Source: Eledone cirrhosa
Lineage: Eukaryota
NCBI GenBank assembly: GCA_964016885.1
Contig: OZ024764.1
Location: forward strand, 21,948,001 to 22,012,000
Direction of reading: 5' to 3'
Length of the DNA stretch: 64,000 bases
The translations under genes were made by a program, and so were the position numbers. The stretch's first letter is position 1. Every line of letters starts with the position of its first letter. The notes under the pieces were generated by a model. It saw nothing but the letters and a program-made list of their open reading frames with translations. It was not told where the DNA came from and ran no database searches. Shown piece by piece: positions 746 to 61,643 of the stretch.

Positions 746-1423
746 GGAGACTCCGGCACCCCATGTGATGTGAGACTGATTGACAGAGTGTTGACTTAAT
801 ATTTTCATTTGTTGTGATTCTATGTGAAATATATCTCTATGTAAGTAACTTGGTTACGTGAATCGAGTGAATCTCGTAAATACTTAAACAGAAATCTACT
901 TAGGACACAAAATAAAGCAGATTCCATTGAACAAAGTATTTAAAAGACGTATATCAAAAAGAAGGGTGGATGTAACGAGAGTTGTCTCCCCTTACGTTTA
1001 TGTTTTACTGTAGTAGAAGTATAGATGTGTTTGTCTGTCTCTCTCTCTCGGTATAAACTACCATTTGCACTGCCTCTGTTTTTTGTTCCTGTCTAATATT
1101 TAACTATATATATATATATCCATCTCTCCAAAAATGATCAATTTAATTCTCTTTAACTCACTACATTCCACGACATGAAGTCTGCTGTCAAAACTGACCA
1201 AAGAATCCTGCCACCTCTACCCCTCCCTCCATCTCAGTTTGTCACTCTACTTCCTACCTCTTCCCCCTTCCTCTCTCTCTATACTATTCCGTCTGTCCCC
1301 TCACCTTCTGATTCCTCTCTCTCTCTACTAGTAAATACAATTCCAAATAAATGTTTTTCTCTATATATTAAGAATTATGCTACAATAATTTCTATATTCT
1401 TCATTTATATATATATATATATC

Positions 1424-1592
1424 TTGAGGTTGTGAGTTCGATTCCTGGACCAGGCGATGCGTTATGACCTTGAGCAAGACACTTTATTTCACGTTGTTCC
1501 TTCTACCTGGAATTGCGACCGATAGTACTAGCAATTGGAAAGACCAATGGAAACATTGCTTCCTCGGTCCGATTTGACGAAAGTCGATCGTT
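1424..1592 (+). mobile_element. tRNA-derived SINE, 5'-truncated
   Basis: B box GAGTTCGATTCC followed by ccttgagcaagacacttt; copies at ~19351 and ~44388. Confidence 0.7.
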
Positions 1593-9170: not shown

Positions 9171-9968
<798 letters not shown>

Positions 9969-17463: not shown

Positions 17464-19549
17464 AAAATATTTTTACTGAATTAAATTATGTAAAGTTTGT
17501 AAGAAAAAAATGAAGTTGAAATCAGTAAATGTAATTAAAATAGAGAAAGTAAGGTGTTGGTGGTGAAGAATGGACGGTACACATTTCACCTCAGTCTAGG
17601 TAGTGTATTTTACCTGTGTCACTCGGACAATAGCCAGCGATGACCACTACACCAACCACTCTCTCCTTCAGATGGTGTTCACTTTCGTGAGTCTGTAGAA
17701 TAACAGGGCAGTGGGAAGACAGAGGACAGCAGAGGAGGTCTTGACTAGAAAAGAGTATCACTTGATACCTCGATATAACCTGTTGGTAGATATAGTAGGG
17801 TGCTGGATCAATCGAGTACCCTGGCAGAGATCACCGGGTATCTCGGTAAGATCGGGTCATATGGAGGCTAAGTTGCCAGAACAGCTAAGTACCCCGACAG
17901 AGATCACCGGGTACTTCGGTAAGATCGGGTCATGTGGAGGCTAAACCGCCAGAACAGCTAAGTACCCTCACAAGAGTCATCGGGTACTTCGGTAAAGCCA
18001 GCCGCCAACAGTGACCACAACTTCGTTGTCAGCAGCCCAGCTTCTCAAACATCACAGACTGGAATAAATACTTTGCCGATAATTACTGGTAGTTTAGCTT
18101 TTATTTCGTTCGTCTACAGAAGCAGTGACCCTCACTTTTACTACAGCATGTAGGATGTGGGAGGGAGACGAAAACATCACTAATGTGACAGTTAGTTTTG
18201 AAAATATATATACAAGATACAAGACAAATGACTAGACTGAAATATATTTGAATGGGAATAAAGAGTAGAATATTCTAGTCTGTGGTGTTGGAGAAGTTTG
18301 GAGGAGATAGGTCCCTGACAACGAGGTTCTTGTTATCGTTGGCAGCTCTCCTTACCGAGGTGTCAGGTGATACATATGAGGGTGTTTGGTAGTTCCAACA
18401 TCATAGCCTTGCTATCACTCGAGGTAAGACTGTCTCAGAAAGTATTAGAAGGAGACTCCAGCACCCCATGTGATGTGCGACTGATTGACAGAGTGTTGAC
18501 TTAATATTTTCATTTGTTGTGATTCTATGTGAAATATGTCTCTATGTAAGTAACTTGGTTACGTGAATCATTGTGAATCTCGTAAATACTTAAACAGAAA
18601 TCTACTTAGGACACAAAATAAAGCAGATTCCATTGAACAAAGTATGTAAAGGACGTATATCAAAAAGAAGGGGGGATGTAACGAAAGTTGTCTCCCCTTA
18701 CATATGTTTTGTTTTACTGTATTAGGGGTATAGATGTGTTTGTCTGTCTCTCTCTCGGTATAAACTATCATTTGCACTGCCTGTTTTTTGTTCCTGTCTA
18801 ATATTTAACTATATATATATATATCCATCTCTCCAAAAATGATCAATTTAATTCTCTTTAACTCACTACATTCCACGACATGAAGTCTGCTGTCAAAACT
18901 GACCAAAGAATCCTGCCACCTCTACCCCTCCCTCCATCTCAGTTTGTCACTCTACTTCCTACCTCTTCCCCCTTCCTCTCTCTCTATACTATTCCGTCTG
19001 TCTCCTCACCTTCTGATTCCTCTCTCTCTATACTAGTAAATACAATTCCAAATAAATGTTTTTCTCTATATATTAAGAATTATTTCAAGAGTAACTTACT
19101 ATTTTGAAAATTTGGACTGTGAACAGAACAACAATTATAATTGAGTGGCTGCTATTTGCAGGATAGAAATATAAGGTTGCACTTACCAATGAAACGGTCG
19201 TAAATACCTGGATAAAATCCTTCTCTTAATGCTTACCTGTGTTTTCTCTTTTATACTATATATACATATATACATATATATAATGGAATACTGTTGGCTT
19301 TTTGCTACAATAATTTCTATATTCTTCATTTATATATATATATATATATCTTGAGGTTGTGAGTTCGATTCCTGGACCAGGCGATGCGTTATGACCTTGA
19401 GCAAGACACTTTATTTCACGTTGTTCCTTCTACCTGGAGTTGCGACCGATAGTACTAGCAATTGGAAAGACCAATGGAAACATTGCTTCCTCGGTCCGAT
19501 TTGACGAAAGTCGATCGTTCCTTCATATATATATATATATATACACACA

Positions 19550-25480: not shown

Positions 25481-25685
25481 TTATCCACAGGGCACAGCAC
25501 TTCTGCCCCTTGACCTAGACCCAAAGCTCAATTATTTACTTGTTGCTGTGGGTACTTTTATATTTAGTTGTTTTATGACCCTTCTTTGAAATGTAGTCTT
25601 TGTCTCATGTGGTGACCTCCTGGTAGTTAATGTAGCAGAACACACTGAAGGACATGCTGCCCTCCCTAGTGTTGGTAACCTACAT

Positions 25686-27730
25686 CAGACATGTCAAACA
25701 TGCGGCCCTTGGCAAGCAAACCTGCGGCCCACACAAAGGTTTTTACAGTGCGAGCATGTTTCATTTTCGTAATATAAAATTTAAAACATTTTCGATACAA
25801 TTATTTTTTTTTTGCAAATTTTGTCAACTATTCTTAACTTCCATTAATCACGTGCAGCTCATTAACAGAAAACTTTCTTTCAAAATTTCAAAAGATTTCG
25901 TTTTTGAAATGGTTAGTGCTCCTCCAGCTAAGAGAAAAAGGAAATTGAACGAAGAAGGGCAAGTGTTTCAAGAAAAGTGGGAATTACAGTATTTTTGCCC
26001 AATGGTGAACAGAAAGATACACTGTTTAATTTGCAACAACTACATCTCCACGCCAAAAGAGTACAATTTAAAAAGACATTATGAAACAAACCCTCGATCT
26101 TACGATAAATATGAAGGCCCAATGTGTGTTTCAAGACTCAAGGAATTGAAGTCTAACTTGACAAAGCAACAGACCTGTTTTATGTTAATTCAGGAAGAGA
26201 ATGTCACTTCCGTTACTGCAAGCTATGAACTCAGTCAAATGATTGCCATGAGTGGGAAATCTTACAGTGAAGGAGATTTTGTAAAGCAATGTCTTGTAAA
26301 ATCAGCTGAAATTGTCCAGAGAAAGCAGTTATTCAAAGACATTTCATTAACCAGGAACACTGTTGCTGAACAGATTAATGAAATGTCAGGTGATCTGAAA
26401 CAACAGTTAAAAGCTGTATCATCAAGGTTTGAACATGTTTCTATTGCTATTGAAGAGACTGTTGACATCACTGGAATAGTACAGCTTGCATTCTTCATCA
26501 GGGCCTGTGACAGTGAATTTAATATTTATGAAGAACTGATTGAACTGGTCCCCATGCATGACACTATAACAAGCTAGGACATCTTTGAGAAGGTCAAGCA
26601 GTGTCTGCATGGTTTTGATCTGAGTAAACTTGCATGTTTATCTACTGACAGTGCTGCAAATATGGTTGGTAGACATAATGGTGTTGCTGCCAAGTTACAA
26701 ACAAAAATAGAAAACTCATATCTAGATTCATCATTTGCACATTTTCACTGTATTATTCATCAGCAAAATTTATGTTCAAAGATTTTAAAATTGCATCATG
26801 TGCTTAGCTTGGTCACAAAGACAGTGAACTAAATCAGAGGCCGTGCTCTCAACCACCATCAGTTCAGCCAGTTGTTGGAAGATATGGATAATCAGTTCAC
26901 CGATGTTCCATTCTACACAGAAGTCTGCTGGTTGACATGTCACAAAGTGCTGAAAAGATTCTATTTGTTGAAATAATTATGTTTTTGGAGATGAAAGGTC
27001 AAAACACAGGTGAAATAAAAGATGAAAGTTGGCTCCAACATCTGGCTTTATTTGTGGATATTACTGCACAATTAACTGATCTTAATTTGAAATTACAAGG
27101 TAAAAACAAACCCATCACCCCGTTGTATGATGACATCAAGTTCTTCATTAGAAAACTTAGCTAATGGAAGTCTCCGTTGTCAGATGAAAATTTAATTCAT
27201 TTTCTTATGTGCAAAGAGCTGAAAATCACTGCCCATACTGAGTCTGTACTTTGCTTAACAAAAACTTCTCAGAGAACAAGGCTGACAGATCAACACTTGT
27301 CATTTCTGATTAAAGTTGAAACTGTACAAACATTTCAGCCAGACATACCAAACATTGTCAACAGAAAGAAGTGTCAAGCCTCAGGACAAAACACTAAAAA
27401 TGGTTGAATAGTAGCAAATAAATGTTCAGTTTTCAACTGTTGTTATTTGTGTACAATGTATTTGTTGCTGTTACAATCTGCAAGTATATGTTGACATGTT
27501 AAATTTTAGTTTTTTGTCAAACTACTTCATTACTTTGTATTCATGAATGCTGCTAAAACATTTGTATGTACATTGTATGTTTCTAAATTTAAGTAACAAA
27601 TCTTTCTGCAATATATTTTATTAAATGACTTTAATTAGTTGTTGTGTACATAATTAGTTGCAGTGTGCAACCCTCAGACAACACATGTGTCCTATGTGGC
27701 CCTTGGGGAACCCTCAGTTTGTTATGCCTC
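25686..27730 (+). mobile_element. hAT transposon remnant (SPIN/GTF2IRD2-like)
   Basis: 8-bp TSD ACCTACAT at 25678-25685 and 27731-27738; degenerate TIR cagacatgtcaaac; KRK...FQEKW, CLIC...NLKRHY, SIAIEETVDIT..QLAFFIR, HCIIHQ. Confidence 0.88.
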
Positions 27731-31889: not shown

Positions 31890-32837
31890 CTAAACTTCTG
31901 TATGAATACACACATGCTTGGTTAAGTTACCACTATGAGAGAATGATTTACCACAGATGTCACAGTGATATGGCTTCTCTCCTGTATGAGTACGTTTGTG
32001 GGTAGCTAAGCTACTTCTGTCAGCGAATGATTTACCACAGATGTCACAATGATATGGCTTCTCCCCTGTATGAGTACGTTTGTGGCTAGTTAAGCCACTT
32101 CTGTCAGTGAATGATTTACCACAGATGTCACAGTGATATGGCTTCTCTCCCGTATGAGTACGTTTGTGAGTAGTTAGGTTATCACTACGAGAGAATGATT
32201 TACCACAGATATCACAGTGATATGGGTTCTCTCCTGTATGAACACGTTTGTGAGTAGTTAGGTGATTACTCTGAGAGAATGAATTACCACAGATATCACA
32301 GTGATATGGCTTCTCTCCTGTATGAATACGTTTGTGGGTAGTTAAGGTATTTCTGTGACTGAATGATTTACCACAGATGTCACAGTGATGTGGCTTCTCT
32401 CCTGTATGAATTTGTTTGTGAACTCTGAAGCTATTACTGTCACTGAATGATTTATCACAGATATCACATTGATATGGCTTCTCTCCTGTATGAATACGTT
32501 TGTGAGTAGTTAGGTGCTGACTACACGGGAATGATTTACCACAGATATCACAATGATATGGGTTCTCTCCTGTATGAATACGTTTGTGAGTAGTTAGGTT
32601 ATTATTTTTAGAGAACGTTTTACCACAGATATCACAGTGATATGGTTTCTCTCCTGTATGAATACGTTTGTGAGTAGTTAGGTGATTACTCTGAGAGAAT
32701 GATTTACCACAGTTATCCCAGTGGAATGGCTCTTCTCCTGTATGAATACGTCTGTGAGTAGTTAGGTGATTACTACGAGAGAATGATTTACCACAGATAT
32801 CACAGTGGAATGGTGATTTTACTATATTTTTCGACAT
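31890..32837 (-). CDS. Tandem C2H2 zinc-finger protein, 11 fingers, finger 2 broken (ZNF copy 2)
   Basis: 315-aa ORF with the same [10 protein letters not shown] start and HTEV end as copy 1; finger 2 has Cys->Trp (HWDNC). Confidence 0.92.
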   Translation of the reverse strand: MSKNIVKSPFHCDICGKSFSRSNHLTTHRRIHTGEEPFHWDNCGKSFSQSNHLTTHKRIHTGEKPYHCDICGKTFSKNNNLTTHKRIHTGENPYHCDICGKSFPCSQHLTTHKRIHTGEKPYQCDICDKSFSDSNSFRVHKQIHTGEKPHHCDICGKSFSHRNTLTTHKRIHTGEKPYHCDICGNSFSQSNHLTTHKRVHTGENPYHCDICGKSFSRSDNLTTHKRTHTGEKPYHCDICGKSFTDRSGLTSHKRTHTGEKPYHCDICGKSFADRSSLATHKRTHTGEKPYHCDICGKSFSHSGNLTKHVCIHTEV

Positions 32838-33194
32838 ATCTCCTACTAAAAGATATCAATCACCTCAGTTTCTCACATAATTCACAGCTTAATACTGAGA
32901 AATTTAGTTATATTACTAAATCACTTCAAAGTGTTGAGTGTTTTCAAAATTATTTGAAAATGATGGTTAGTGTCTTTCATTAGAAATGGTTAATGTTGAG
33001 GATAAGACTGATGTAACGTGCTCTTTAATGCCAATGTCCTCTGGTGTTCTGAAATAATAAAAGAACATTATAAGATACTGAGAAACTTGTAATACATCAG
33101 TACAAATTTCATATAATATTTCTATATTGATAAATGGACTGTAATAAATACTAAGGCCTTCTTTGGTGAAGAATGTGCTGACTAACATAGGTTA

Positions 33195-34549: not shown

Positions 34550-36869
34550 GATAAAGGATGATACAATGAAAGATAAATTCCTTCAATGTTGCAATATTAA
34601 AGAAAATGTAAAGGAAGGGGTGGACAATGGAGCCAACACCAGAGCAAAAGACAGCAACGAGGGGTACTGGGAAACCTCTCTAATGAGTATTGAGGCAAGC
34701 CAGCACACTGACAGTGTTACCTCGGGTGATGGCGGGGCTGAAGTGCTGGAACAGCCAAGCGCCCTCGCCATTTCGCCAGTTACCCCTACAAGGCGAGCCG
34801 CCAGTGAAGAAAGGAACCTCGCAGTCAGCGGACCGACTCCCCCAAACGTCTCGAAAGCCACAGGCTGAAAAATGTAGCTGGCCGACAGATCAGAGTATTT
34901 GAGGGTCTTACTCCGCTCGGCTGCCGAAGCTGTGGCTCTCGTCCTTACCGCAGCATCAAGGATGTAGGAAAGAGCAAAGGAGTCACTAACAGTGACGTCC
35001 CAGATTAAGCACCTGCCTCTCGACCAGGGGCACAGGGTAAGGCCGTCAGGTCTTTTGCCGTCACTTCTGGACAACCCAGATGGTTCCAAGACAGAGGATG
35101 TTTGCCCGGGCCAAAGCTCTCTTCAGAATAAAGTTTAGCTCCGTGTGACGGGCAAAGTGGCCGGCATTCAGGCGGCAAGAAAGACTGTGGGAGCCTGTGG
35201 AGTCGAGGTGTTAGCCACATCTCAAACCCATGCAGACGTCAGCTCCCACTCTGAGGGTGATGGAGACACGAACTTCATCCAGGCTGAGTAGGCCTCCAAC
35301 GTTGGCCACGGGTAAGGCATCGACCCAGCCACCGGAGTATTTGGCGCTGGCAGATGGTAAGCGGCACCTTGTAAACTGATCTGAGAGGACGAAGAGGGAG
35401 TCGAAGGTGGCATTCCAACGTATCCTGTCCCAAGTTCTCTGACTTCGACTGTCCTCCACCTTCTCAGGAAGGGACAAGCCCAACTCACTCCATTGCTGGA
35501 GAGCTTCACACAACTCCCTGTTGGAACTAGTCCATATTGGAGAGGAGAGGATGCTGCAAGCTTGGGTGGAGGAAAGGAAGCAGGGGAGAGAGAGGGACGA
35601 ACACTTAATAACATTGACCAGACACTCGAGTCTCTCGAAGATTAGGTCGTCGAAGCGTTGGAGGCAGGATGGAAATCTGTGAGAGGGGCTGACCCTGAGC
35701 AGATACAGAAGCTTAGGAATAGACAGGTAGTTCCTGAGTAAGAAGAAACCTTGATGGGGTTCGATATCTTCAATATTCCTCAGCAGCTGCTCAAGGCCAA
35801 CCATCTTCGATTGGATGGTTGACTCGAAGGCCAGGTCTGTGATCGGGGCTCCTAAGGAGCTTTGATTTGGAGAAGCCCTGGGGTTTGTGGCAAAGTCGTC
35901 GGTAGAGTGTTGGTCATCCCCACGGAATAGACGGAGCTGAAGTGGCACCGATGACAGGTCCAGTGTTGAAGCCTTTCGGCTTGAGCTTTGGTGATGCTGA
36001 CACAGCTTCTGTGGTAGCTTGTGTGGCATAGGTGACATTTAATTGTCTTTAAGTACTGGTTAGTGCGGGCACAGAGGGCGCAATCAGGTGGCGGGCTGGC
36101 AACAGCCGGCAGTAGAGGGCCAGCGTTGGAAGGTGTAGAAGGAGTGAGAAGATGATGAGTACGTAGAGAGGAGTGTGGTCATGTGAGAGGCAGATAAATA
36201 CAGTGGGAGAGAAAGAGCACTGAACATGCAAAGAGAAGGAAAATAAAAACGCTAGAAATACAAAATCTAAGGCTGTGAGTTTGTGTAATAGTTCGCATGG
36301 GTAAATCCGCAGTAAAAACCGAAATTGTGAGTTTGTGTAAAAAAAAAAAAAAAAAAAAAACATGGGCAAGACTTAAGTAAAATCAAAACCTGAATGATAG
36401 TGATACAAGATGTTTACAATTACGGAGTGATTACATTACTGGACCTGAATTCTATCAAGTGGTCAAAGCTTCTAATTCTGTGAAATAGAATGGAAGTATG
36501 GATTGACCTTTCAGTCACACCTGACTATAAATAGATTCAGGTTATTTCAAGAGGGAGATGGGATGGTTCCTCGCCATTTATAATTATTTATATTTTATTT
36601 TATATTTGGGGGGTTTGACTTTGAAAAATTGTAAGTGTATGTTAAGGAGGAAAGTATAATTGTGTGATACAATTGCTCCAGGTTGGTTCCCTACGTTGTT
36701 GCCACAAACAATTCTTTTTTCCTCCGAACATCTGTTATTCCTCTCCGTAGATTATAAATGGTAAAATCCGTTCGATCCAACCGAATGGAAAATCCAGTTC
36801 CTTGAAGAATATTTTGAGTTGTCTCGGACAAAGCAAAAAAAGGGGAAAGTTGAAAATGTTTACCTCGTT
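34550..36869 (-). mobile_element. CRE-like element, duplicated copy with three deletions
   Basis: Paralog of 12300-16570 lacking the RT core. Confidence 0.82.
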
Positions 36870-37323: not shown

Positions 37324-37456
37324 ACTTACATTATAGTCTCAGGTGTTTAGTATTTACAGAAATGTTTTCTAAATGTTGTTGTAGGAAGACTAACACGTGG
37401 ACAGGAAGTCGACAAATGCACCACTGCGCATGCTTCAAGGTTTTTTTGTGACGTCA
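37324..37456 (-). promoter_or_regulatory. Putative promoter and exon 1 donor of ZNF copy 2
   Basis: Same motif cluster, with a perfect TGACGTCA at 37449-37456; donor at 37329-37324; acceptor at 33049. Confidence 0.55.
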
Positions 37457-37809
37457 AAATATTTTTACGGAATTAAATTATGTAAAGTTTGTAATAAAAA
37501 GTGAAGTTGAAAACAGTAAATGTAATTAAAATAGAGAAAGTAAGGTGTTGGTGGTGAGGAATGGACGGTAGACGTTTCACCTCAGTCTAGGTAGTGTATT
37601 TTTACCTGTGTCACTCGGACAATAGCCAGCGATGACCACTACACCAACCACTCTCTCCTTCAGATGGTGTCCACTTTCGTGATTCTTTAGAATAACAGGC
37701 CAGTTGGAAGACAGAGGACAGCAGAGAAGGTCTTGACTTGAAAAGAGTATCACTTGATACCTCGATATAACCTGTTGGTAGATATAGTAGGGTGCTGGAT
37801 CAATCGAGT

Positions 37810-38060: not shown

Positions 38061-39036
38061 AGCCAGCCGCCAACAGTGACCACAACTTCGTTGTCAGCAG
38101 CCCAGCTTCTCAAACATCACAGACTGGAATAAATACTTTGCCGATAATTACTGGTAGTTTAGCTTTTATTTCGTTCGTCTACAGAAGCAGTGACCCTCAC
38201 TTTTACTACAGCATGTAGGATGTGGGAGGGAGAGAAAAACATCACTAACTGGGGTCTCACAAATGTGACAGTTAGTTTTGAAAATATATATACAAGATAC
38301 AAGATAAATGACTAGACTGAAATATATTTGATAGGGAATAAAGAGTAGAATATTCTAGTCTGTGGTGTTGGGGAAGTTTGGAGGAGATAGGTCCCTGACA
38401 ACGAGGTTCTTGTTATCGTTGGCAGCTCTCCTTACCGAGGTGTCAGGTGATACATATGAGGGTGTTTGGTAGTTCCAACATCTTAGCCTTGCTATCACTC
38501 GAGGTAAGACTGTTTCAGAAAGTATTAGAGGGAGACTCCGGCACCCCATGTGATGTGAGACTGATTGACAGAGTGTTGACTTAATATTTTCATTTGTTGT
38601 GATTCTATGTGAAATATATCTCTATGTAAGTAACTTGGTTACGTGAATCATTGTGAATCTCGTAAATACTTAAACAGAAATCTACTTAGGACACAAAATA
38701 AAGTAGATTCCATTGTACAAAGTATCTAAAGAACGTATATCAAAAAGAAGGGGGGGATGTAACGAAAGTTGTCTCCCCTTACATATGTTTTATGTTTTAC
38801 AGTAGTAGAGGTTTATATGTGTTTGTCTGTCTCTCTCTCGGTATAAACTACCATTTGCACTGCCTCTGTTTTTTGTTCCTGTCTAATATTTAACTATATA
38901 TATATATATATCTTGAGGTTGTGAAATGAAATGGAATACTGTTGGCATTTTGCTACAATAATTTCTATATTCTTCATTTATATATATATATAATATAATA
39001 AATAAATAACAAAGAACGCTTATAGCATATGCATAT

Positions 39037-39094
39037 CTTTACTTGCTAACATTGTTTCATCCACACTATAAGTGGGACTCATCAGAGCATAAAG
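39037..39094 (-). ncRNA. Minimal type I hammerhead ribozyme (inverted copy)
   Basis: Reverse complement of 44174-44231. Confidence 0.8.
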
Positions 39095-39860
39095 GTTAAT
39101 TACATACCATACAAGCAATAACAAATCCAAGACATTGAAGAATGAAAGGTAATAATAGACGATATAGGATAAGAATAAAAAATAAAAATAAAAGTAAAAA
39201 TAAAAATAAAAATAAAAATAAAAATAAAAATAAAAATAAAAATAAAAATAAAAATAAAAATAAAAATAAAAATAAAAATAAAAATAAAAATAAAAATTAA
39301 AAAAAAATAAAAATAAGAATAAGGGGTGCTATCTGTCACAGTTGGGCGGTGTGCTGTCAACATATAGTTACATACAAGCATACACATGGATAAGAGAACA
39401 GACAAGAGTAGACACATGGATAAGAGAACAGACAAGAGTAGGTAAGATAATGGGATTAGGTAAGAGTAGGTAAAAAATAGGTAAAAAATAGGTAAAAAAC
39501 AGACTTATAATATATATAAAAAGAGAAATACAAAGAAATACATAACAAACTTACATATAAAATATAAAATATAGGGTAAGGAATGAGATAAAATAATATA
39601 CAATTAAAAATTAAAAATTATATACATAGAACATAATATAGTATAATCGTAAAATAAGATAAAATAAGGTAAACTAAAATCAAATAACATAGACTAAATT
39701 AAAATTAAAATCAAATGTGTAATTATAATTATATGTATAATTAAATGTAATTAAATGTAATTAAATAATAAATAAAGAAATAAATAAATAAAAATTAAAT
39801 AAATAAATAAAATTTAAATTTAAATTTTAAAATTTTAAAGTTAAAATCTAAATTTAAATA

Positions 39861-39907
<47 letters not shown>

Positions 39908-40821
39908 ATGGAGTCAAGTAAGTAAATAAATAAAATTAGATAACATGAAATGAAATAAAATGAAATGAAATAAAGTAAATTGAGATAAGATATATATTTT
40001 TTTAGAATATATCTCTTGAATATATCAGGGGCCCACGAAGGCACTAAATGTCACAGTTATGTGTATCACTTGACCAATTTTTCAAAATACATTTCTTGAA
40101 AACATCAGGGGCCCACGAAGGCACTAAGTGTCACAGTCACCAGTATCACTTGACCATTGCAAGGCAATGGAGGCGTCCCAGGTTGGGCAGTCTCGAAAGT
40201 TCACTCGAAAGTCATGGGTGTGCCTTCACACAGTTGAGCGGTGGGGTAATCACAAACCGGTTCACACACCAATTTTTTAAAAATATATTTCTTGAAAACA
40301 TCAGGGGCCCACGAAGGCGCTAAGTGTCACAGTCACCAGTATCACTCGAGCGGTGGGGTAATCACAAACCGGTTCAACACGGGCAGGAGTCAAATGGTCA
40401 GAGAGGTGCATCAAAGGAGGTAGAAGAATTCACATGCATTAGCAAGCGTGAGGTTAAAGCAGGCAGATACAGTTGTAGCGCATACAAAATATAAAAAGAT
40501 AGCTTCAAGAGCCATTAAGTCACCGCATTGGGACATCACAAGATTGTACACATCAATATGTTCAGTACGTACATGCACGTATACACACCACATGCACATG
40601 CAGAGACGGTATACATATATATATATATATATTTTTTTATATATACACACAGACACATATAACCACCTACACCCATACACATATAAATGTATACACGGGC
40701 ACACACGCACACACACACAGCGTAGGACACCCGGGTCAAAGCCGATATTAAGTACGATATTAAATACAATATTAAATATTAAACACCGAAATACCACATT
40801 AGATCCGGCTTTAGGGACAAA

Positions 40822-41895
40822 TTGTATTACACCCAGGGAAATAATGGTCCTAATAGTAGCTCTACCAGTGTTGTTATAACACATAATATGTCCATTGGTA
40901 ATCGAGGTGTCGCGAATGGGAGGGTTCTAAATGCCGGTGGAATGAAACAGCAGGGCACCATTAGTCTAAGTAATAACAATAGAGGTGTCGTGAACGGGAG
41001 GTTTCTAGATGCCGGTGGAATGAACCAGCAGGGCACCATTAGTCTAAGTAATAGCAATGGTGGGCCTCGCAGCTCCCCGCATAGACTAGGTGAGCATAGG
41101 AACCGTAGAAATAATAATGCTAATAATACTGATGGAAATAGAAAGAATAAAAAGAATAGAAGAAGATTGAATACATACTTCAACCCCCCTTTTAATTCTG
41201 AAGTGGCTACAAATATTCCTAGGGCCTTCTTCTCTGTGCTAGAACGGAACTTCCCTCCTGGTAATAGGTACCACTCTATCCTCAATAAGAATGTTGTTAA
41301 ACTTTCATATTCTACAACCCAAAATCTAGCCTCTCATCTGGCCATTACTAATAATAAGAAAATAAAGGAAGGCCTAGACAACCTAAGCCTAGGGGAAAAC
41401 ACGGTAGTGGATAGAGTGGGCAGTAACACTAGTGGTGATCTTTCTGAGAATAGCATCACCAGAGGTTGTAACTGTAGAAGGGCTTCGGGCTGCCCCCTGA
41501 ATGGTTTCTGCCTTGTTAGAAACATAGTTTATGCGTGTGATGTGGTAACTATGGCGTCCACTATGACCTATATAGGATCAACTTCCACCCCCTTTAAGAC
41601 CAGGTTTAACTCTCATCAATGCACTTTTAGACATAATAAACTGAAGAACTCCACCTCCTTGGCAGCGTACGTCCATAATTTAAAAAATGCACGAACACCT
41701 TACACACTTACTTGGCGGCAGGTTGCTAAATCCCATCCATATACTCCTCATAGTAGAGTATGCAACCTGTGCCTTGCCGAATCCCACTCTATTATATTTG
41801 CTAAATGCCCTCTACTAAATAGAAAGTCTGAAATTTTTTCCTCTTGCCCCCACCGAATATTAAGCTCTTTCTTCTACTTTAAACCTGTTAGCTAG
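40822..41895 (+). CDS. Penelope-like GIY-YIG endonuclease, C-terminal part of the polyprotein (RT missing)
   Basis: YFNPPF...KLSYS linker, CNC-x5-CPLNGFC Zn-linker, NIVY...YIGST, R...H, CNLCLAE and LLNRKSEIFSSCPHR; the frame stays open upstream to the arm junction (SGFRDKLYY); the track start is TTG, not a real start. Confidence 0.85.
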   Translation: MYYTQGNNGPNSSSTSVVITHNMSIGNRGVANGRVLNAGGMKQQGTISLSNNNRGVVNGRFLDAGGMNQQGTISLSNSNGGPRSSPHRLGEHRNRRNNNANNTDGNRKNKKNRRRLNTYFNPPFNSEVATNIPRAFFSVLERNFPPGNRYHSILNKNVVKLSYSTTQNLASHLAITNNKKIKEGLDNLSLGENTVVDRVGSNTSGDLSENSITRGCNCRRASGCPLNGFCLVRNIVYACDVVTMASTMTYIGSTSTPFKTRFNSHQCTFRHNKLKNSTSLAAYVHNLKNARTPYTLTWRQVAKSHPYTPHSRVCNLCLAESHSIIFAKCPLLNRKSEIFSSCPHRILSSFFYFKPVS

Positions 41896-43490
41896 CACGT
41901 CCTTATTCCTCCAGTTGGGCTGTCTTGTGTAACTGTCTCTGACTGAGTGTAACTGTCTCCTAATGTTGGTCGTCTATGTATACGAGTCTGTGAATGTATA
42001 CGTATGCCTGTGGGAGGATATTGATCTTGATATTGGGGTGTGCAGGGGAGTGTATGTTAATAAGCACCCCTGTTTGGTACAGTGGATGTAACCCATCCAC
42101 GCTGGCCTACCCACCATTAGTGCATTGGTGGACCTATCCTGACGTATATCTTGTTGATCTGTACCTCTGTATGCGCATGAGTTGTGATGTAATGTATTTA
42201 TGTAAAGCGTGTACTGTGATTTAGGCTGCACTAGTAGAAATTTAGCCTGTAACTGTGGCGGACCCGTGCCATCCTGCCGTAAGCAGTGGATACGTGGCGC
42301 ATATATGTGTTGCCCTCATATTCTGTGGTTCAAGATCTACAGGCTGACCTCTGGGAACTCTTACTCGGGGTTGTAGTCTTTCTAGCACGATCGGCCTTCC
42401 TTATATTGACGGTCGTTTTTATGATCCCGAAAGTAACGTTTTGGCCCCGATGGCCCTCCGTAGGTACTAACGGTCTGTGTACACTCGAATCGGTCAATGG
42501 CACGTGCAGACATGAATATCTCCGTAGGATTTCAACTGTATTTTAATACATCTCATCGTATGTATTTGTTTTGAATATATTACCTGTGGTGGTGGGTCTG
42601 ATCTAATGTGGTATTTCGGTGTTTAATATTGTATTTAATATCGTACTTAATATCGACTTTGACCCGGGTATCCTACGCTGTGTGTGTGTGCGTGTGTGCC
42701 CGTGTATACATTTATATGTGTATGGGTGTAGGTGGTTATATGTGTCTGTGTGTATATATAAAAAAATATATATATATATATATGTATACCGTCTCTGCAT
42801 GTGCATGTGGTGTGTATACGTGCATGTACGTACTGAACATATTGATGTGTACAATCTTGTGATGTCCCAATGCGGTGACTTAATGGCTCTTGAAGCTATC
42901 TTTTTATATTTTGTATGCGCTACAACTGTATCTGCCTGCTTTAACCTCACGCTTGCTAATGCATGTGAATTCTTCTACCTCCTTTGATGCACCTCTCTGA
43001 CCATTTGACTCCTGCCCGTGTTGAACCGGTTTGTGATTACCCCACCGCTCGAGTGATACTGGTGACTGTGACACTTAGCGCCTTCGTGGGCCCCTGATGT
43101 TTTCAAGAAATATATTTTTAAAAAATTGGTGTGTGAACCGGTTTGTGATTACCCCACCGCTCAACTGTGTGAAGGCACACCCATGACTTTCGAGTGAACT
43201 TTCGAGACTGCCCAACCTGGGACGCCTCCATTGCCTTGCAATGGTCAAGTGATACTGGTGACTGTGACACTTAGTGCCTTCGTGGGCCCCTGATGTTTTC
43301 AAGAAATGTATTTTGAAAAATTGGTCAAGTGATACACATAACTGTGACATTTAGTGCCTTCGTGGGCCCCTGATATATTCAAGAGATATATTCTAAAAAA
43401 ATATATATCTTATCTCAATTTACTTTATTTCATTTCATTTTATTTCATTTCATGTTATCTAATTTTATTTATTTACTTACTTGACTCCAT

Positions 43491-43521
<31 letters not shown>

Positions 43522-44173
43522 TATTTAAATTTAAACTTTAAAATTTTAATTTTATTTATTTATTTAATTTTTATTTATTTATTTCTTTATTTATTTATTT
43601 AATTACATTTAATTACATTTAATTATACATATAATTATAATTACACATTTGATTTTAATTTTAATTTAGTCTATGTTATTTGATTTTAGTTTACCTTATT
43701 TTATCTTATTTTACGATTATACTATATTATGTTCTATGTATATAATTTTTAATTTTTAATTGTATATTATTTTATCTCATTCCTTACCCTATATTTTATA
43801 TTTTATATGTAAGTTTGTTATGTATTTCTTTGTATTTCTCTTTTTATATATATTATAAGTCTGTTTTTTACCTATTTTTTACCTACTCTTACCTAATCCC
43901 ATTATCTTACCTACTCTTGTCTGTTCTCTTATCCATGTGTCTACTCTTGTCTGTTCTCTTATCCATGTGTATGCTTGTATGTAACTATATGTTGACAGCA
44001 CACCGCCCAACTGTGACAGATAGCACCCCTTATTCTTATTTTTTTTTTATTTTTATTTTTATTTTTATTTTTACTTTTATTTTTATTTTTTATTCTTATC
44101 CTATATCGTCTATTATTACCTTTCATTCTTCAATGTCTTGGATTTGTTATTGCTTGTATGGTATGTAATTAAC

Positions 44174-44231
44174 CTTTATGCTCTGATGAGTCCCACTTAT
44201 AGTGTGGATGAAACAATGTTAGCAAGTAAAG
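44174..44231 (+). ncRNA. Minimal type I hammerhead ribozyme
   Basis: CTTTATGCT-CTGATGA-GTCCCACTTATAGTGTGGAT-GAAAC-AAT-GTT|AGCAAGTAAAG: conserved core, stems I and II pair, tiny stem III, GUU triplet. Confidence 0.8.
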
Positions 44232-44581
44232 ATATGCATATGCTATAAGCGTTCTTTGTTATTTATTTATTATATTACGGCTCTGTCCTCAGACATTGAG
44301 CTAACCTCATACTGCCTGCTGGATAAGTGGAGTGTTATACACACCTGATCCTTTCCCTAGCATACTTTATATATATATATATATATCTTGAGTTTGTGAG
44401 TTCGATTCCTGGACCAGGCGATGCGTTATGTCCTTGAACAAGACACTTTATTTCACGTTCCTTCTACATGGAATTGCGACCTTTAGTACTAGCAATTGGA
44501 AAGACCAATGGAAACATTGCTTCCTCGGTCCGATTTGACGAAAGTCGATCGTTCCTTCATATATATATATATATACACACA

Positions 44582-46651
44582 CTGTTGTACCTTGACTTAA
44601 GAGTTTAATTTGTTCCGTGGAGGACCTCGTAACTTAAATTACTCGTATGTCAAATCAATTTTCCCCACTGAAATAAATTAAAATGCCGTTAATCCGTTCC
44701 AGACCACAAAACCCACAGTTTGTTTTGTTACGTGTTTTTAAATAAGAAAAATGTACTGATAAATAACAAATATTGTATATAAAAAAAACAATACAATAGA
44801 ATGTACTGCAACAAACTAGTTTTATGAAGTATAATGTACAGCATCTATCTTGGAGATCAGACGACTTGAGGATGTTGACGGAGGAGAAAGGATGAACTGA
44901 ATAACTGAATCTTATTCGCTGAATTTTGCCCCTTTTCGCCACGCTTTCCTCACTTTTATCTGCAGGGATTTTCAATAAAAACCTGTCTAATGAGGTTTGT
45001 TTCATCTCACTTGTTGAGATAACCTCCTCTGTGTCACCTATTTCCTGCAAAACCTCCGTGTGTTGCTGTGTCTGTAGCTCCTTTAATTCCTTCTTTGTCA
45101 GTTCCTCGGAGTGCTCCTTGATGAGCTCGTTGATGTCACCTTCATCCATGTCCAAGCCCATGCACTTACCGAGGGGTACAATCTCCCCCACCACTGCCGC
45201 TTCGGGTTCGAGTCTTTCAAAGTCTGTTTTAGACACAACTTCAGGCCACAGCTTCTTCCATGTAGAGGTCAAGGTCCTCTTTGTAAGACCCTGCCATGTC
45301 ATATCAATAATTCTGAGGCATATCACGATGTTATAATGGTCCTTCCAGCCCTCTCAAGGGTGAAGTTTGTGCTCTCCGTCATTTCAAAGCAGCGACTGAA
45401 CAGGTGCTTGGTGAAGAGCTTCTTGAAATTAGAAAGTACCTGCTGGTCCTTGGGCTGTAGGATAGGGGTGGTGTTTGGTGGAAGGTAGAGGACCTTTATA
45501 AACTTGAACTCTTCGAGGTTAGGTGGGTGAGCAGGTGTATTGTCCAGAACAAGAAGAGTTTACAGGGGTAGGTTATTTTCATGGAGATATTTTTTAACGT
45601 CAGGACCAAAGACCAAATTCACTCACTCCACAAAGAACTACCTGGTGACCCATGACCTCGGGTTTGCCCTCCACATAACCTGCAGTTTTTCTTTCAGAAT
45701 CTTATGTGACTTAAAGGTTCTGGAGTTTTCTGAATGATAAACGAGCGGCGGCTTAATCTTACACTCGCCGCTCAGTGGCACACAGTGCGAGGGTTAGCCT
45801 ATCCTTCATGGGTTTGTGGCCAGGCATCCTCTTCTCCTCTGCCGTTATATAAGTCCTCCTTGGTATCTTCTTCCAAAAAGTCCTGTTTCATCACAGTTAA
45901 AGACTTGCTGAGGGATGTATCCTTTGGCTGCTATAATTCTGGCAAAGGTTTTGAGGTAATCCTCAGCTGCCTTCATATCCGCGCTCGCTGCCTCACCATG
46001 CCTGACAACGGAGTGAATGCCGGTCCTCTTTTTAAAATTCTCAAACCAACCCCGACTGGCATTAAAGGGCTTGCCGATGGCTCGTCCGTAGAAGTACCTG
46101 GGGTCTGCTGCAGCAAACCAGCGTAAATAGCTCGTGCCTTCTCACATATTATAATCTTCATCACAGTATCTCTTGCGAGCTGCTTCTCCGTCAACCACAC
46201 CATCAGCAGCTTTTCCATATTTTCATGGATAGATGTCCGCTGTTTAGAAATTATTTTACCACCCTTAGCTGGGGTTATAGCCTTTATCAAGTCCTTCTAC
46301 TTCAGTATGGTACATATCATAGAAGTGCTACGCTCGTACTACTTCACCAAGTCCACTACACACACCTTGGTCATGTTTTTCTATAATTTCTTTCTTTAAT
46401 TCAATACACATCATCTGCTTCTTCTTCTCAGAACTGTCCTTCGCCCTCACTTTCTTCGAAGCCATGGGATGCCGGGCGGGTGTTACGGTATTTCATGTGG
46501 CGGTCACTATGCCAACTAGTGGCGGGGCAACTGAAGCTGACTCGTAACCCGAATTTTACTCTGGAACTCAACGCAAAAAAAATCAGCCGAGAGAGGGCTC
46601 GAATCTCGAAAAACTTATTAGTTGGGACACTCATAAGTCAAGGTACCACTG
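44582..46651 (-). mobile_element. Tigger/pogo remnant, copy 3 (most complete)
   Basis: Same TIRs and transposase fragments. Confidence 0.88.
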
Positions 46652-48918: not shown

Positions 48919-49512
<594 letters not shown>

Positions 49513-55194: not shown

Positions 55195-56045
55195 CAGGGT
55201 GCGGACGATATTTGTTCGCAAGATTACTGTCTAGGAAAAATTAAGACAGTAGTTTTATTTTTTAAGATATATTTATCAAACTTGTGTCAGTTTGTCTTCA
55301 TGACTTGTTCTTTCGATCTCACTCCATAAACCCGCCATTGGCTTTGATGACGGCCTCGGAACCAGCTACAGGCCTTCGTCACTGTCCCCCGACTTAGGCC
55401 CCTAAAGGCACTTGTGATGCTGGCCTTCAGATCGCCTTTCGTATTGCAGCTACATCTGTTGGTGTCTCGTTCCACTGCGCCCCACACAAAGAAGTGGAGG
55501 TGGTTGCAGTCAGGCGAGCTGGGAGGCCAGATGTCAGGTGAAGTGTGGTCGACGAAGTTCTCTGACAGCCAGGCTTGGGTCTTGCTGCCACACGTACAGC
55601 CTACCTGCAGCTACCTGGTCGATCCAGGGCTTTACTACCTCGCTCAGAACGTGGATGTAGCCATCGGTGTTCAGCTTGAGGTCCTCAGGGAAGAAGTGAG
55701 GTGGCTTGACGTCACCTTGACTGCTGATGACACCAAAGACCAATGTTATCGCTGGAAACTTTGTCTGCATGACTCTGGGCAGGTCTTTGGATGAGACAGC
55801 GAGCCACCTGTTGTTCTGGGAGTTGATCTTCTGGTCCTTATTTATCCTCCAGGCGCGGATTCCAAGAGGAACTCTGTCTCTTCCACAAATTTGGAGGTTC
55901 TAAATTATTCATAATCAATTATTCGGAAAATAAATAATGGAAATATAGTCACTGTTTTTATGAAGACAAGAGTGACAACGGAAGTAAAAAAAATTTGCAT
56001 AAAATTAGCAGTTGAAAATTGCGAACAAATATCGTACACACCCTG
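55195..56045 (-). mobile_element. Tc1/mariner (maT/DD37D-like) deletion derivative
   Basis: TA TSD; TIRs cagggtgcggacgatatttgttcgcaa / ttgcgaacaaatatcgtacacaccctg; YVWQQD and WPPSSPDCN motifs. Confidence 0.85.
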
Positions 56046-58945: not shown

Positions 58946-59602
58946 TATATATATATGAAAAAGATCTCGTTTTTTTACAAAAACAATATAAAATAATAGA
59001 AGGTGGAGAAGTTAAAACAGCTCAACATACAGTAATTTATTATAATAAACACTACAAAAGACTGTCTCATACTTCTTTGAAAGATGTTTTCAAACAAACA
59101 CGTGTACAAAATCCTATTGTGTTAAAAGTAATAATTACGTATGAAACAAATTATTCATTAAAGTAATTAGCAAATACGTTTTATATATGGTGTCTAGCAA
59201 GGGGACCCACTCGCCTCACTCCTATTGGTGCTGACAGTTGACAACATGGTCTAGTTACCCCTGTCTGGTACCTAGATGACACAACCCTGGGTGGCCCGGC
59301 TGTGTCAGGTTAAGGCCTCTCTATACCCCAGTATATTACAGTCCAACATAACTGGGATGACATCAATTGTAGGTCTCTTCACACCGGTCACCATCGAGAC
59401 CTCAGAAGTACTTGGACCCCGTACTGCCAAGCTCCTCTGTAAGATCAGAACGTTGGTGGCTCTTCTGAAGAGGGAGCCTCAAGAGATTGGAGTGGCTGTT
59501 GCATGAAATGTAGTCTTTGTCTCATGTGGTGACCTCCTGGTAGTTAATGTAGCAGAACACACTGAAGGACATGCTGCCCTCACTAGTGTTGGTAACCTAC
59601 AT

Positions 59603-61643
59603 CAGACATGTCAAACATGCGGCCCTTTGCAAGCAAACCTGCGGCCCACACAAAGGTTTTTACAGTGCGACCATGTTTCATTTTCGTAATATAAAATTTA
59701 GAACATTTTCGATACAATTGTTTTTTTGGTGCAATTTTTGTCAACTACTTTTAACTTCCATTAATCACGTGCAGCTCATTAACAGAAAACTTTCTTTCAA
59801 AATTTCAAAAGATTTTGTTTTTGAAATGGTTAGTGCTCCTCCAGCTAAGAGAAAAAGGAAATTGAACGAAGAAGGGCAAGTCTTTCAAGAAAAGTGGGAA
59901 TTACAGTATTTTTGCCCAATGGTGAACAGAAAGATACACTGTTTAATTTGCAACAACTACATCTCAACACCAAAAGAGTACAATTTAAAAAGACATTATG
60001 AAACAAACCCTCGATCTTACGATAAATATGAAGGCCCAATGTGTGTTTCAAGACTCAAGGAATTGAAGTCTAACTTGACACAGCAACAGACCTGTTTTAT
60101 GTTAATTCAGGAAGAGGATGTGACTTCTGTTACTGCAAGCTATGAACTCAGTCAAATGATTGCCATGAGTGGGAAATCTTACAGTGAAGGAGATTTTGTA
60201 AAGCAATGTCTTGTAAAAACAGCTGAAATTGTCCAGAGAAAGCAGAGTTATTCAAAGACATTTCATTAACCAGGAACACTGTTGCTGAACAGATTAATGA
60301 AATGTCAGGTGATCTGAAACAACAGTTAAAGGCTGTATCATCATGGTTTGAACATGTTTCTATTGCTATTGAAGAGACTTGACATCACTGGAATAGTACA
60401 GCTTGCATTCTTCATCAGGGCCTGTGACAGGGAATTTAATATTTATGAAAAACTGATTGAACTGGTCCCCATGCATGACACTATAACAAGCCAGGACATC
60501 TTTGAGAAGGTCAAGCAGGGTCTGCATGGTTTTGATCTGGGTAAACTTGCATGTTTATCTACTGACAGTGCTGCAGATATGGTTGGTAGACATAATGGTG
60601 TTGCTGCCAAGTTACAAACAAAAATAGAAAACTCATATCTAGATTCATCATTTGCACATTTTCACTATTATTCATCAGCAAAATTTATGTTCAAAGATTT
60701 TAAAATTGCATCATGTGCTTAGCTTGGTCACAAAGACAGTGAACTAAATCAGAGGCCGTGCTCTCAGCCACCGTCAGTTCAGCCAGTTGTTGGAAGATAT
60801 GGATAATCAGTTCACCGAAGTTCCATTCCACACAGAAGTCTGCTGGTTGACATGTCACAAAGTGCTGAAAAGATTCTATTTGTTGAAATAATTGTTTTTG
60901 GAGATGAAAGGTCAAAACACAGATGAAATAAAAGATGAAAGTTGGCTCCAACATCTGGCTTTTGTTGTGGATATTACTGCACAATTAACTGATCTTAATT
61001 TGAAATTACAAGGTAAAAACAAACCCATCACTCAGTTGTATGATGACATCAAGTTCTTCATTAGAAAACTTCGCTTATGGAAGTCTCCGTTGTCAGATGA
61101 AAATTTAATTCATTTTCTTATGTGCAAAGAGCTGAAAATCACTACCAATACTGAGTCTGTACTTAGCTTAACAAAAACTTCTCAGAGAACAAGGCTGACA
61201 GATCAACACTTGTCATCTCTAATTAAAGTTGGAACTGTACAGACATTTCAGCCAGATATACCAAACATTGTCAACAGAAAGAAGTGTCAAGCCTCAGGAC
61301 AAAACACTAAAAATGGTTGAATAGTAGCAAATAAATGTTCAGTTTTCAACTGTTGTTATTTGTGTACAATGTATTTGTTGCTGTTACAATCTGCAAGTAT
61401 ATGTTGACATGTTAAATTTTAGTTTTTTGTCAAACTACTTCATTACTTTGTATTCATGAATGCTGCTAAAACATTTGTATGTACATTGTATGTTTCTAAA
61501 TTTAAGTAACAAATCTTTCTGCAATATATTTTATTAAATGACTTTAATTAGTTGTTGTGTACATAATTAGTTGTAGTGTGCAACCCTCAGACAACACATG
61601 TGACCTATGTGGCCCTTGGGGAACCCTCAGTTTGTTATGCCTC
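59603..61643 (+). mobile_element. hAT remnant, duplicated copy
   Basis: Same TSD and site, so it was copied with the unit rather than transposed. Confidence 0.88.

What the first reader, a model, noticed from the sequence alone, without database searches (positions are those of the whole stretch)
39037..44231. Pair of outward-facing minimal hammerhead ribozymes with a GUU cleavage triplet
Seen: a CUGAUGA/GAAAC core with stem II gtcc-cac/gtg-t-ggat, stem I ctttatgct/agca(ag)taaag and a near-palindromic stem III AACAATGTT. It lies at 44174-44231 (+) and is mirrored at 39037-39094 (-). Known: minimal type I hammerheads with tiny palindromic stem III occur in Penelope pseudo-LTRs and are thought to cleave as dimers. 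Inference: transcripts of either strand could be cut near the distal end of the element (after 44220 on +, after 39048 on -). The minus copy could terminate read-through from ZNF3 before the ZNF2 promoter. GUU is a less common triplet.
Basis: partly seen in the sequence, partly recalled or inferred. Interest (0 to 1): 0.72.

Follow-up and report, generated by a model that had tools for sequence, protein, structure and literature searches.

The report
Penelope retrotransposon's own hammerhead, mirrored
The two hammerhead-ribozyme motifs are the standard end-piece of one common jumping gene (a Penelope-like retrotransposon) that inserted here as two back-to-back arms, a pattern already described for this group, so the pair is ordinary and likely does nothing for the neighbouring zinc-finger genes.

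Summary
Observation confirmed: identical minimal type I hammerhead motifs at 44174-44231 (+) and 39037-39094 (-). They are the pseudo-LTR hammerhead of one young Penelope-like element with Hydra-clade motifs, inserted as two head-to-head 5'-truncated arms (38991-44368) into a (TA)8 tract that is empty in two paralogous ZNF units. The core pattern has 944 genome matches (control 1), and all 100 listed are GUU. Outward-facing pairs are the family norm. In 21 of 21 and 9 of 9 two-ended loci, one arm ends about +55 after the predicted cut and the other at +149. Stems covary across sister families, so the motif is real. GUU, the odd-length palindromic stem III and an opposite-strand pair are already tabulated for Hydra-clade elements (Craig 2021, File S2). 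Termination of ZNF read-through is not supported: each strand has only one copy, a read-through RNA would pair the motif with its own antisense arm, and paralogous units lack the insertion. Cut ends are almost absent from the genome (one copy begins at the cut, none ends there). This scan noted the same two-armed architecture before on other DNA of this genome. Cleavage itself is untested.

The parts
38991..40803 (-). Left arm: inverted, 5'-truncated copy of the element's 3' end, without tail (ends about +55-57 after the predicted cut)
39037..39094 (-). Minimal type I hammerhead motif, left arm; predicted cut after 39048
40800..40803 (.). Head-to-head junction of the two arms, 4-nt overlap
40800..44368 (+). 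Right arm: 5'-truncated Penelope-like element, with tail (ends about +147-149)
40783..41895 (+). Open frame holding the ORF remnant: end of RT thumb, N/G-rich linker, CxCx5C motif and GIY-YIG-type endonuclease; RT core missing
41896..44173 (+). Long 3' UTR / pseudo-LTR with simple-repeat tracts; about 42600-44277 is mirrored in the left arm
44174..44231 (+). Minimal type I hammerhead motif, right arm; predicted cut after 44220
44278..44368 (+). One-sided 'tail' (about 91 nt); in full-length copies it is the sequence between the hammerhead and the ORF start
44279..44302 (+). Bulged hairpin just 3' of the +55 end point; a second copy of it follows the +149 end point in full-length elements
38980..38990 (.). 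Left remnant of the (TA)n target
44369..44386 (.). Right remnant of the (TA)n target
1389..1440 (.). Empty paralogous site in ZNF unit 1
19314..19367 (.). Empty paralogous site in ZNF unit 2
37330..37460 (-). Context: likely promoter and first exon of ZNF2 (splice joint 37330 to 33045 in one contig of the RNA-like run X4, possibly from a paralogue)
   Evidence: promoter position is inference

Best explanation
The two motifs are one pseudo-LTR hammerhead of a Penelope-like retrotransposon with Hydra-clade motifs, present twice and facing outward because the element lies here as two back-to-back 5'-truncated arms in a (TA)n tract; it likely cuts RNA only slowly, as a dimer, and likely has no role for the ZNF genes. 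Shown: family membership, architecture, empty paralogous sites, conserved fold, fixed arm ends at about +55 and +149. Inferred: the RT-endonuclease cut both strands of the TA tract and primed one cDNA on each strand from two fixed start points on uncut (or re-ligated) RNA of one donor, and the two cDNA ends were then joined. Inferred: in full-length tandem copies the ribozyme trims or unit-cuts element RNA through a stem III dimer (6 bp around an A-A mismatch), probably with protein help; in this truncated copy it is a passenger.
For: Full-length copies have hammerhead, tail, ORF of about 830 aa, 3' UTR and a second hammerhead, 5215 nt cut to cut. The protein has the GLYRDD RT motif and a C-terminal nuclease, with atlas hits carrying RVT_1 and GIY-YIG. 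944 core matches, control 1; among the first 100 listed, 22 outward-facing clusters, 1 tandem, 0 inward-facing, 50 single (hand count). One tail+ and one tail- end in 21 of 21 two-hammerhead loci, in 9 of 9 loci with a second end found among 15 picked by the tail, and in 4 of 4 in a related family. Arms of one insertion differ by 0.45% (26 loci) against 3.3% between insertions. 97.9% of cells paired, a UA-to-CG change at the stem I closing pair, GC/GU at 10.1-11.1. Unrelated families in this genome keep stems I and II and a (near-)palindromic stem III that the search did not ask for. In the alignment of sister subfamilies, 0 of 9 core and 1 of 14 stem II columns vary, against 33 of 64 upstream. 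24 long arms run through the upstream cut site and none starts within 50 nt of it (36 loci). One copy begins at the cut and none ends there. Literature: PMC4209133, PMC11167929, PMC8557442.
Against: No cleavage assay and no raw RNA reads. Covariation rests on one compensatory event among related sequences; 'pairs with a change on both sides' was not above shuffle (469 of 500). No Rfam or Pfam hit at curated cut-offs. The family has G-U, not the usual G-C, at 10.1-11.1, so activity may be reduced. Two tail- ends were short (+29, +41). Locus L201 has two outward tail+ ends 8.7 kb apart with no tail- end found, a possible exception. In 6 of 15 tail-picked loci no second end was found.
Confidence: 0.85

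Rival explanations
1. Host co-option: the minus-strand copy cuts read-through RNA from ZNF3 and shields the ZNF2 promoter.
For: The insertion lies about 1.5 kb upstream of the likely ZNF2 first exon and downstream of ZNF3, with the minus copy in the ZNF sense. It was kept in a 99.4-99.6% identical duplicate of the region.
Against: Two paralogous units have the empty site. The copy is family-typical, with no private change. There is one motif per strand. The antisense arm precedes it in a read-through RNA. The duplicate may be a recent segmental copy or an assembled second haplotype.
Confidence: 0.04
2. The arm acts on ZNF2 not by cutting but as an outward promoter or a source of double-stranded RNA: pseudo-LTR transcription runs out of the left arm toward ZNF2, or read-through folds into a 1.7-kb hairpin for editing or small RNAs.
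For: The D. virilis Penelope pseudo-LTR can drive downstream genes (PMC2377424, section 18). The arms differ at 8 substitutions in about 1,770 aligned nt, plus gaps in simple repeats.
Against: No promoter was mapped in this family, and there is no locus-specific RNA evidence. This would be a side effect of the insertion, not a function of the hammerhead.
Confidence: 0.15
3. The hammerhead of this family is a near-inactive relic carried by the element.
For: G-U at 10.1-11.1 where sister subfamilies have G-C. The monomer fold is 6.3 kcal/mol above the MFE. Cut ends are nearly absent from the genome. Core mutants did not affect insertion in vitro for the anole element (PMC11167929).
Against: The core and stems are conserved against diverged flanks. 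A published Hydra-clade motif (Penelope-17_HM) also has gtc/gat with GUU.
Confidence: 0.2
4. The structure is a DNA transposon with long terminal inverted repeats and an endonuclease-only ORF.
For: 1.7-kb inverted arms around a single nuclease frame.
Against: Inner junctions vary from copy to copy. Full copies encode an RT. The two ends are unequal, tail+ and tail-.
Confidence: 0.01

Closest known systems
Hydra-clade C-terminal EN+ Penelope-like elements (Craig et al. 2021, PMC8557442; e.g. Hydra-1_Obim, Penelope-13_HM, Penelope-17_HM)
   Same: RT followed by a GIY-YIG nuclease, CxCx5C linker, no CCHH, CxxC and CxH flanking E and N, (TA)n targets, sense hammerhead near the 3' end, odd-length near-palindromic stem III, GUU common, inverted 5'-truncated copy giving two opposite-strand hammerheads (Penelope-13_HM), tail on one end.
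   Different: Unit is 5.2 kb (2.5-kb 3' UTR) against 'generally <3 kb'. RWR and DKA instead of RWK and DKT. Tail about 94 nt against 30-40. Stem III is 3+1+3, one pair shorter than most listed. N/G-rich linker expansion.
Minimal metazoan PLE hammerheads (Cervera and De la Pena 2014, PMC4209133)
   Same: Type I, tiny palindromic helix III, long helix II, short helix I; opposite-strand pairs near each other were already reported.
   Different: G-U instead of the usual G10.1-C11.1; no extra nucleotide between A9 and 10.1 in this reading; the pair is 5.1 kb apart rather than 100-700 bp.
PAc Poseidon element of Anolis (Frangieh et al. 2024, PMC11167929)
   Same: Two fixed reverse-transcription start points downstream of the hammerhead define the tail; AT-rich targets; uncut RNA is the main template.
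   Different: Different clade. The PAc hammerhead overlaps the start codon, whereas here the cut is about 215 nt upstream of the first ATG. The start points are about 94 nt apart here, each just before a bulged hairpin.
Non-LTR retrozymes (bioRxiv 10.64898/2026.07.22.740005)
   Same: Type I minimal hammerhead of PLE type.
   Different: Retrozymes are short non-coding tandem units. This is a coding element's end; such 466-470-nt arrays exist elsewhere in this genome.

Membership tests
Type I hammerhead ribozyme (minimal PLE type) | Core C3-U4-G5-A6-N7-G8-A9 and G12-A13-A14 | tested here: met
   (0 of 9 core columns vary among sister subfamilies)
Type I hammerhead ribozyme (minimal PLE type) | Stems I and II, with open ends in stem I | tested here: met
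   97.9% of cells paired; one compensatory change
Type I hammerhead ribozyme (minimal PLE type) | A15.1-U16.1 pair and NUH triplet | tested here: met
   GUU; NUH rule as stated in PMC9217987; sister subfamilies have GUU or GUC
Type I hammerhead ribozyme (minimal PLE type) | R10.1-Y11.1 pair, usually G-C | tested here: inconclusive
   G-U wobble in this family, G-C in sisters; effect on rate unknown
Type I hammerhead ribozyme (minimal PLE type) | Palindromic stem III that allows a dimer | tested here: met
   ACA-N-UGU with N = A, C or U across families; 6 of 7 positions pair in a dimer
Type I hammerhead ribozyme (minimal PLE type) | Site-specific self-cleavage | not testable with these tools
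   no assay; no raw RNA reads
Rfam hammerhead families | Score at or above the gathering threshold | tested here: not met
   (14.8 against 48.5 bits for RF00008)
EN+ Penelope-like elements | Single ORF with RT and C-terminal GIY-YIG endonuclease | tested here: met
   Pfam scan itself weak (GIY-YIG E=0.012 in 2 of 10 members)
EN+ Penelope-like elements | Pseudo-LTRs, partial tandems, inverted 5'-truncated copy, one-sided tail | tested here: met
Hydra clade | CxCx5C linker; CCHH absent; CxxC and CxH around E and N | tested here: met
   read against PMC8557442 section 11
Hydra clade | (TA)n insertion and canonical hammerhead | tested here: met
Hydra clade | RWK and DKT motifs | tested here: inconclusive
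   RWR and DKA in this family; RWK and DKT in several aligned homologues
Hydra clade | Generally short (<3 kb); a tendency, not a diagnostic | tested here: not met
   unit 5215 nt
Hydra clade | Groups with reference Hydra RTs in a tree | not tested
   named reference proteins were not available as tool sequences
Neptune/Nematis clades | CCHH motif and CX2-5CxxC linker | tested here: not met
   one Cys only between the IVY and YIG motifs; CxCx5C linker

The most novel reading that the evidence does not exclude
The strict one-tail/one-no-tail rule, the two hairpins just behind the two end points and the near-identity of the arms record a dimeric RT-endonuclease that primes both strands of one TA break from two fixed sites of one donor's RNA; and the hammerhead's palindromic stem III serves mainly as an RNA-RNA handle that holds two templates in that dimer rather than as a cutter. 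The double-priming half I put near 0.55. The handle half is weakened by Naiad elements, which have the same architecture without hammerheads (PMC8557442).
Probability: 0.1. Interest if true: 0.7.

Novelty: new member of a known kind. Interest (0 to 1): 0.2.

Why it matters
As a locus it matters little: it is one of several hundred similar insertions. Its value is as a test system. This is a very young family with many intact ORFs and sharply defined ends, suited to the open questions of what PLE hammerheads do and how inverted, one-tailed insertions form. The genomic record here argues that RNA cut at the hammerhead is rarely the template.

Tried and rejected
Rfam scans: nothing at gathering level. 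Pfam and PDB sequence searches of the full ORF: no curated hit. Run search: no RNA holder listed. Contigs of X4 behaved like RNA (splice joints absent from X1) and covered the element, with high summed depth over the hammerhead region, but contig depth cannot rank parts and sister families map there, so it is not used as evidence. No intron joint was seen in the element's 5' region (absence proves nothing). My first guess of the Neptune clade was dropped after the motif comparison. An endonuclease-only TIR transposon was rejected. Within-family covariation was uninformative because the family is young. k-mer junction mapping was noisy in simple repeats; only clean switches were read, and none lay at the cut (nearest -15, -46, -50). 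The dimer energy is a half-dimer only (-17.8 against a cofold MFE of -29.3), so folding programs do not favour the active form. Lunse et al. 2017 (PMC5785218) was not held; I saw only its title and a review's summary. A third core-like match at 55724 (+) lacks stems and was rejected. Look-ups of earlier findings near this place and by sequence returned nothing.
Full report
Observation. The window holds identical 58-nt motifs at 44174-44231 (+) and 39037-39094 (-). A relaxed core pattern matches twice in the window against a mean of 0.005 in 200 shuffles. Rfam does not call it (Hammerhead_3 14.8 bits, E=3). The catalytic monomer fold scores -5.6 kcal/mol against an MFE of -11.9, as expected for a motif with a 2-bp stem III.

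What it sits in. Both motifs lie in long inverted arms around a 370-aa frame. Full copies read hammerhead, tail, ORF of about 830 aa, long 3' UTR, hammerhead, tail, (TA)n, and measure 5215 nt from cut to cut. The protein has 1308 homologues at E<=1e-30 among 7997 scored, one named from Argonauta hians, and atlas hits carrying RVT_1 and GIY-YIG. Its motifs (CxCx5C linker, no CCHH, CxxC and CxH around E and N) fit the Hydra clade as defined in PMC8557442 section 11; no tree was built. The window copy is two 5'-truncated arms, 38991-40803 (-) and 40800-44368 (+), joined with a 4-nt overlap. The same flanks with an empty (TA)8 tract occur at 1389 and 19314 in paralogous ZNF units. That the host is probably an octopod is inference from the ZNF cluster and that homologue.

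The pair is the family norm. The family core pattern has 944 matches, control 1; all 100 listed end in GUU although A and C were allowed. By hand count of that list there are 22 outward-facing clusters, 1 tandem-only cluster, no inward-facing cluster and 50 singles. I fetched 20 of the 22 clusters (the other two were already held) and the first 20 singles. In 21 of 21 loci with hammerheads on both strands, one arm ends at about +55 after the predicted cut (two were shorter, +29 and +41) and the other at +147-149. Three further singles had a short opposite arm obeying the same rule. In 15 new loci picked by the tail end, 9 showed a second end, all tail-less, and 6 showed none. One separately fetched locus (L201) may be an exception. 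A related family shows the same in 4 of 4. Arms of one insertion differ by 0.45% (26 loci) against 3.3% between insertions (648 comparisons), so both arms come from one donor. Following a lead from earlier finding e1-8837782, I checked and found a bulged hairpin just 3' of each end point, in this family and the related one.

Is the motif a real hammerhead? A general minimal pattern has 13,545 genome matches against 212 control. Unrelated families found this way keep stems I and II and a palindromic or one-base-interrupted palindromic stem III, none of which the pattern required. In 14 rows from three homologous families, 97.9% of cells pair, the stem I closing pair changes UA to CG, and 10.1-11.1 is GC or GU. 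This is one compensatory event among relatives, and the count of pairs changed on both sides was not above shuffle (469 of 500). Sister subfamilies (360 matches) vary at N7, the loop, the palindrome centre and H17 (U or C), though that pattern fixed the other positions. In an alignment of 13 copies, of which three loci were found by protein and not by the motif, 0 of 9 core and 1 of 14 stem II columns vary against 33 of 64 upstream; the stem I and III counts printed there are inflated by one copy with a deletion.

Does it cut? Untested. The genomic record shows little trace of it. Of the long arms in 36 loci, 24 run through the upstream cut site, 5 start between +52 and +271, and none starts within 50 nt of the cut. 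Genome-wide, 3 copies have a non-T before +1: one point variant in a full motif, one variant in an arm that still holds the 3' half of the motif, and one (L235) that begins at the cut; the control position +7 gave 0. All 3 copies with a changed +1 base are point variants. Junctions with a chance T are missed by this test. This agrees with PMC11167929, where uncut RNA was the main template and the hammerhead needed protein, and with the low dimer activity in PMC4209133.

The ZNF idea. All three ZNF frames are on the minus strand. But each strand has one motif, so a dimer needs a partner in trans. A read-through RNA makes the antisense arm first and can pair the motif completely (-103 kcal/mol). 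Two paralogous units do without the insertion. I rate it 0.04. An outward promoter or double-stranded-RNA side effect is more plausible (PMC2377424) but has no evidence here.

Comparison with print. PMC4209133 (read: parts 1-2 of 4) reports minimal hammerheads in pseudo-LTRs and opposite-strand pairs. PMC8557442 (passages, sections 11 and 15, supplement part 2 of 59 and one supplement search) describes the inverted truncated copy and one-sided tail. Its File S2 lists 25 Hydra-clade families: by my count 10 GUU, 11 GUA, 4 GUC, mostly with one unpaired base in a palindromic stem III, and Penelope-13_HM with a hammerhead on each strand. PMC3846280 (passages) describes inverted pseudo-LTRs and an optional tail. 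Also seen: PMC11167929 (parts 1-2 of 4), PMC6765202 and PMC9217987 (passages), PMC2377424 (abstract, section 18), bioRxiv 10.64898/2026.07.22.740005 (part 1 of 5). I did not find the strict one-to-one count or a double-priming model for PLEs in searches. Subscription papers, Lunse 2017 and unread supplement parts could hold it. This scan's earlier unchecked notes describe the same architecture on other DNA of this genome.

Verdict. A real minimal hammerhead motif and a new member of a known kind; interest 0.2. The residual value is the sharp end rule, which makes PLE priming testable.

Noticed in passing
G000:C25:21110000-21134900 (L204, L058, L205): A duplicate of window 28944-53629, 99.4-99.6% identical and carrying the same insertion with the same junction: a recent segmental duplication of the ZNF cluster or an assembled second haplotype.
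   Followed up: partly
L131-L160: A second abundant PLE family (ORF 738-750 aa, 42% identical to this one) in which my core regex found no family hammerhead within 1.5 kb of the ORF; it may have a variant core or a more distant motif.
   Followed up: no
G000:C1:5738326-5752444 and C1:14044535-14051131 (L172-L180): Tandem arrays of 466-470-nt units, each with a hammerhead (stem III ACUAGU), often ending in an inverted unit: retrozyme-like.
   Followed up: partly
L196:3590-3640: A sister-subfamily copy with a 36-nt deletion whose left edge coincides, within a 2-nt overlap, with the predicted cleavage site; a single case.
   Followed up: no
L235:1500-1680 (minus strand): A copy that begins at the predicted cut site and carries the tail; the only such case found genome-wide.
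   Followed up: partly
L055:3112-8082: An arm of almost exactly one unit length, from +52 of one pseudo-LTR to +55 of the next.
   Followed up: no
window 40840-41140: N/G-rich linker with a short internal repeat between RT thumb and nuclease, much longer than in most aligned homologues; N-rich inserts are described for rotifer PLEs (PMC3846280).
   Followed up: no
window 48919-49512, 31890-32855, 9171-9968: Three paralogous C2H2 zinc-finger frames of 197, 321 and 265 aa in roughly 20-kb repeated units; ZNF3 is the shortest.
   Followed up: no
window 25636-26577 and 59553-60269: Frames with a Spin-doc zinc finger (PF18658), probably DNA-transposon remnants.
   Followed up: no
window 34583-36038 and 44655-45353: Broken frames without a Pfam hit that look like a non-LTR retroelement fragment and a Tigger/pogo-type transposase end (resemblance recalled, not tested), repeated in the paralogous units.
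   Followed up: no
L201 (G000:C2:269302300-269312200): Two outward-facing tail+ ends 8.7 kb apart with no tail- end found: an exception to the end rule or two separate insertions.
   Followed up: partly
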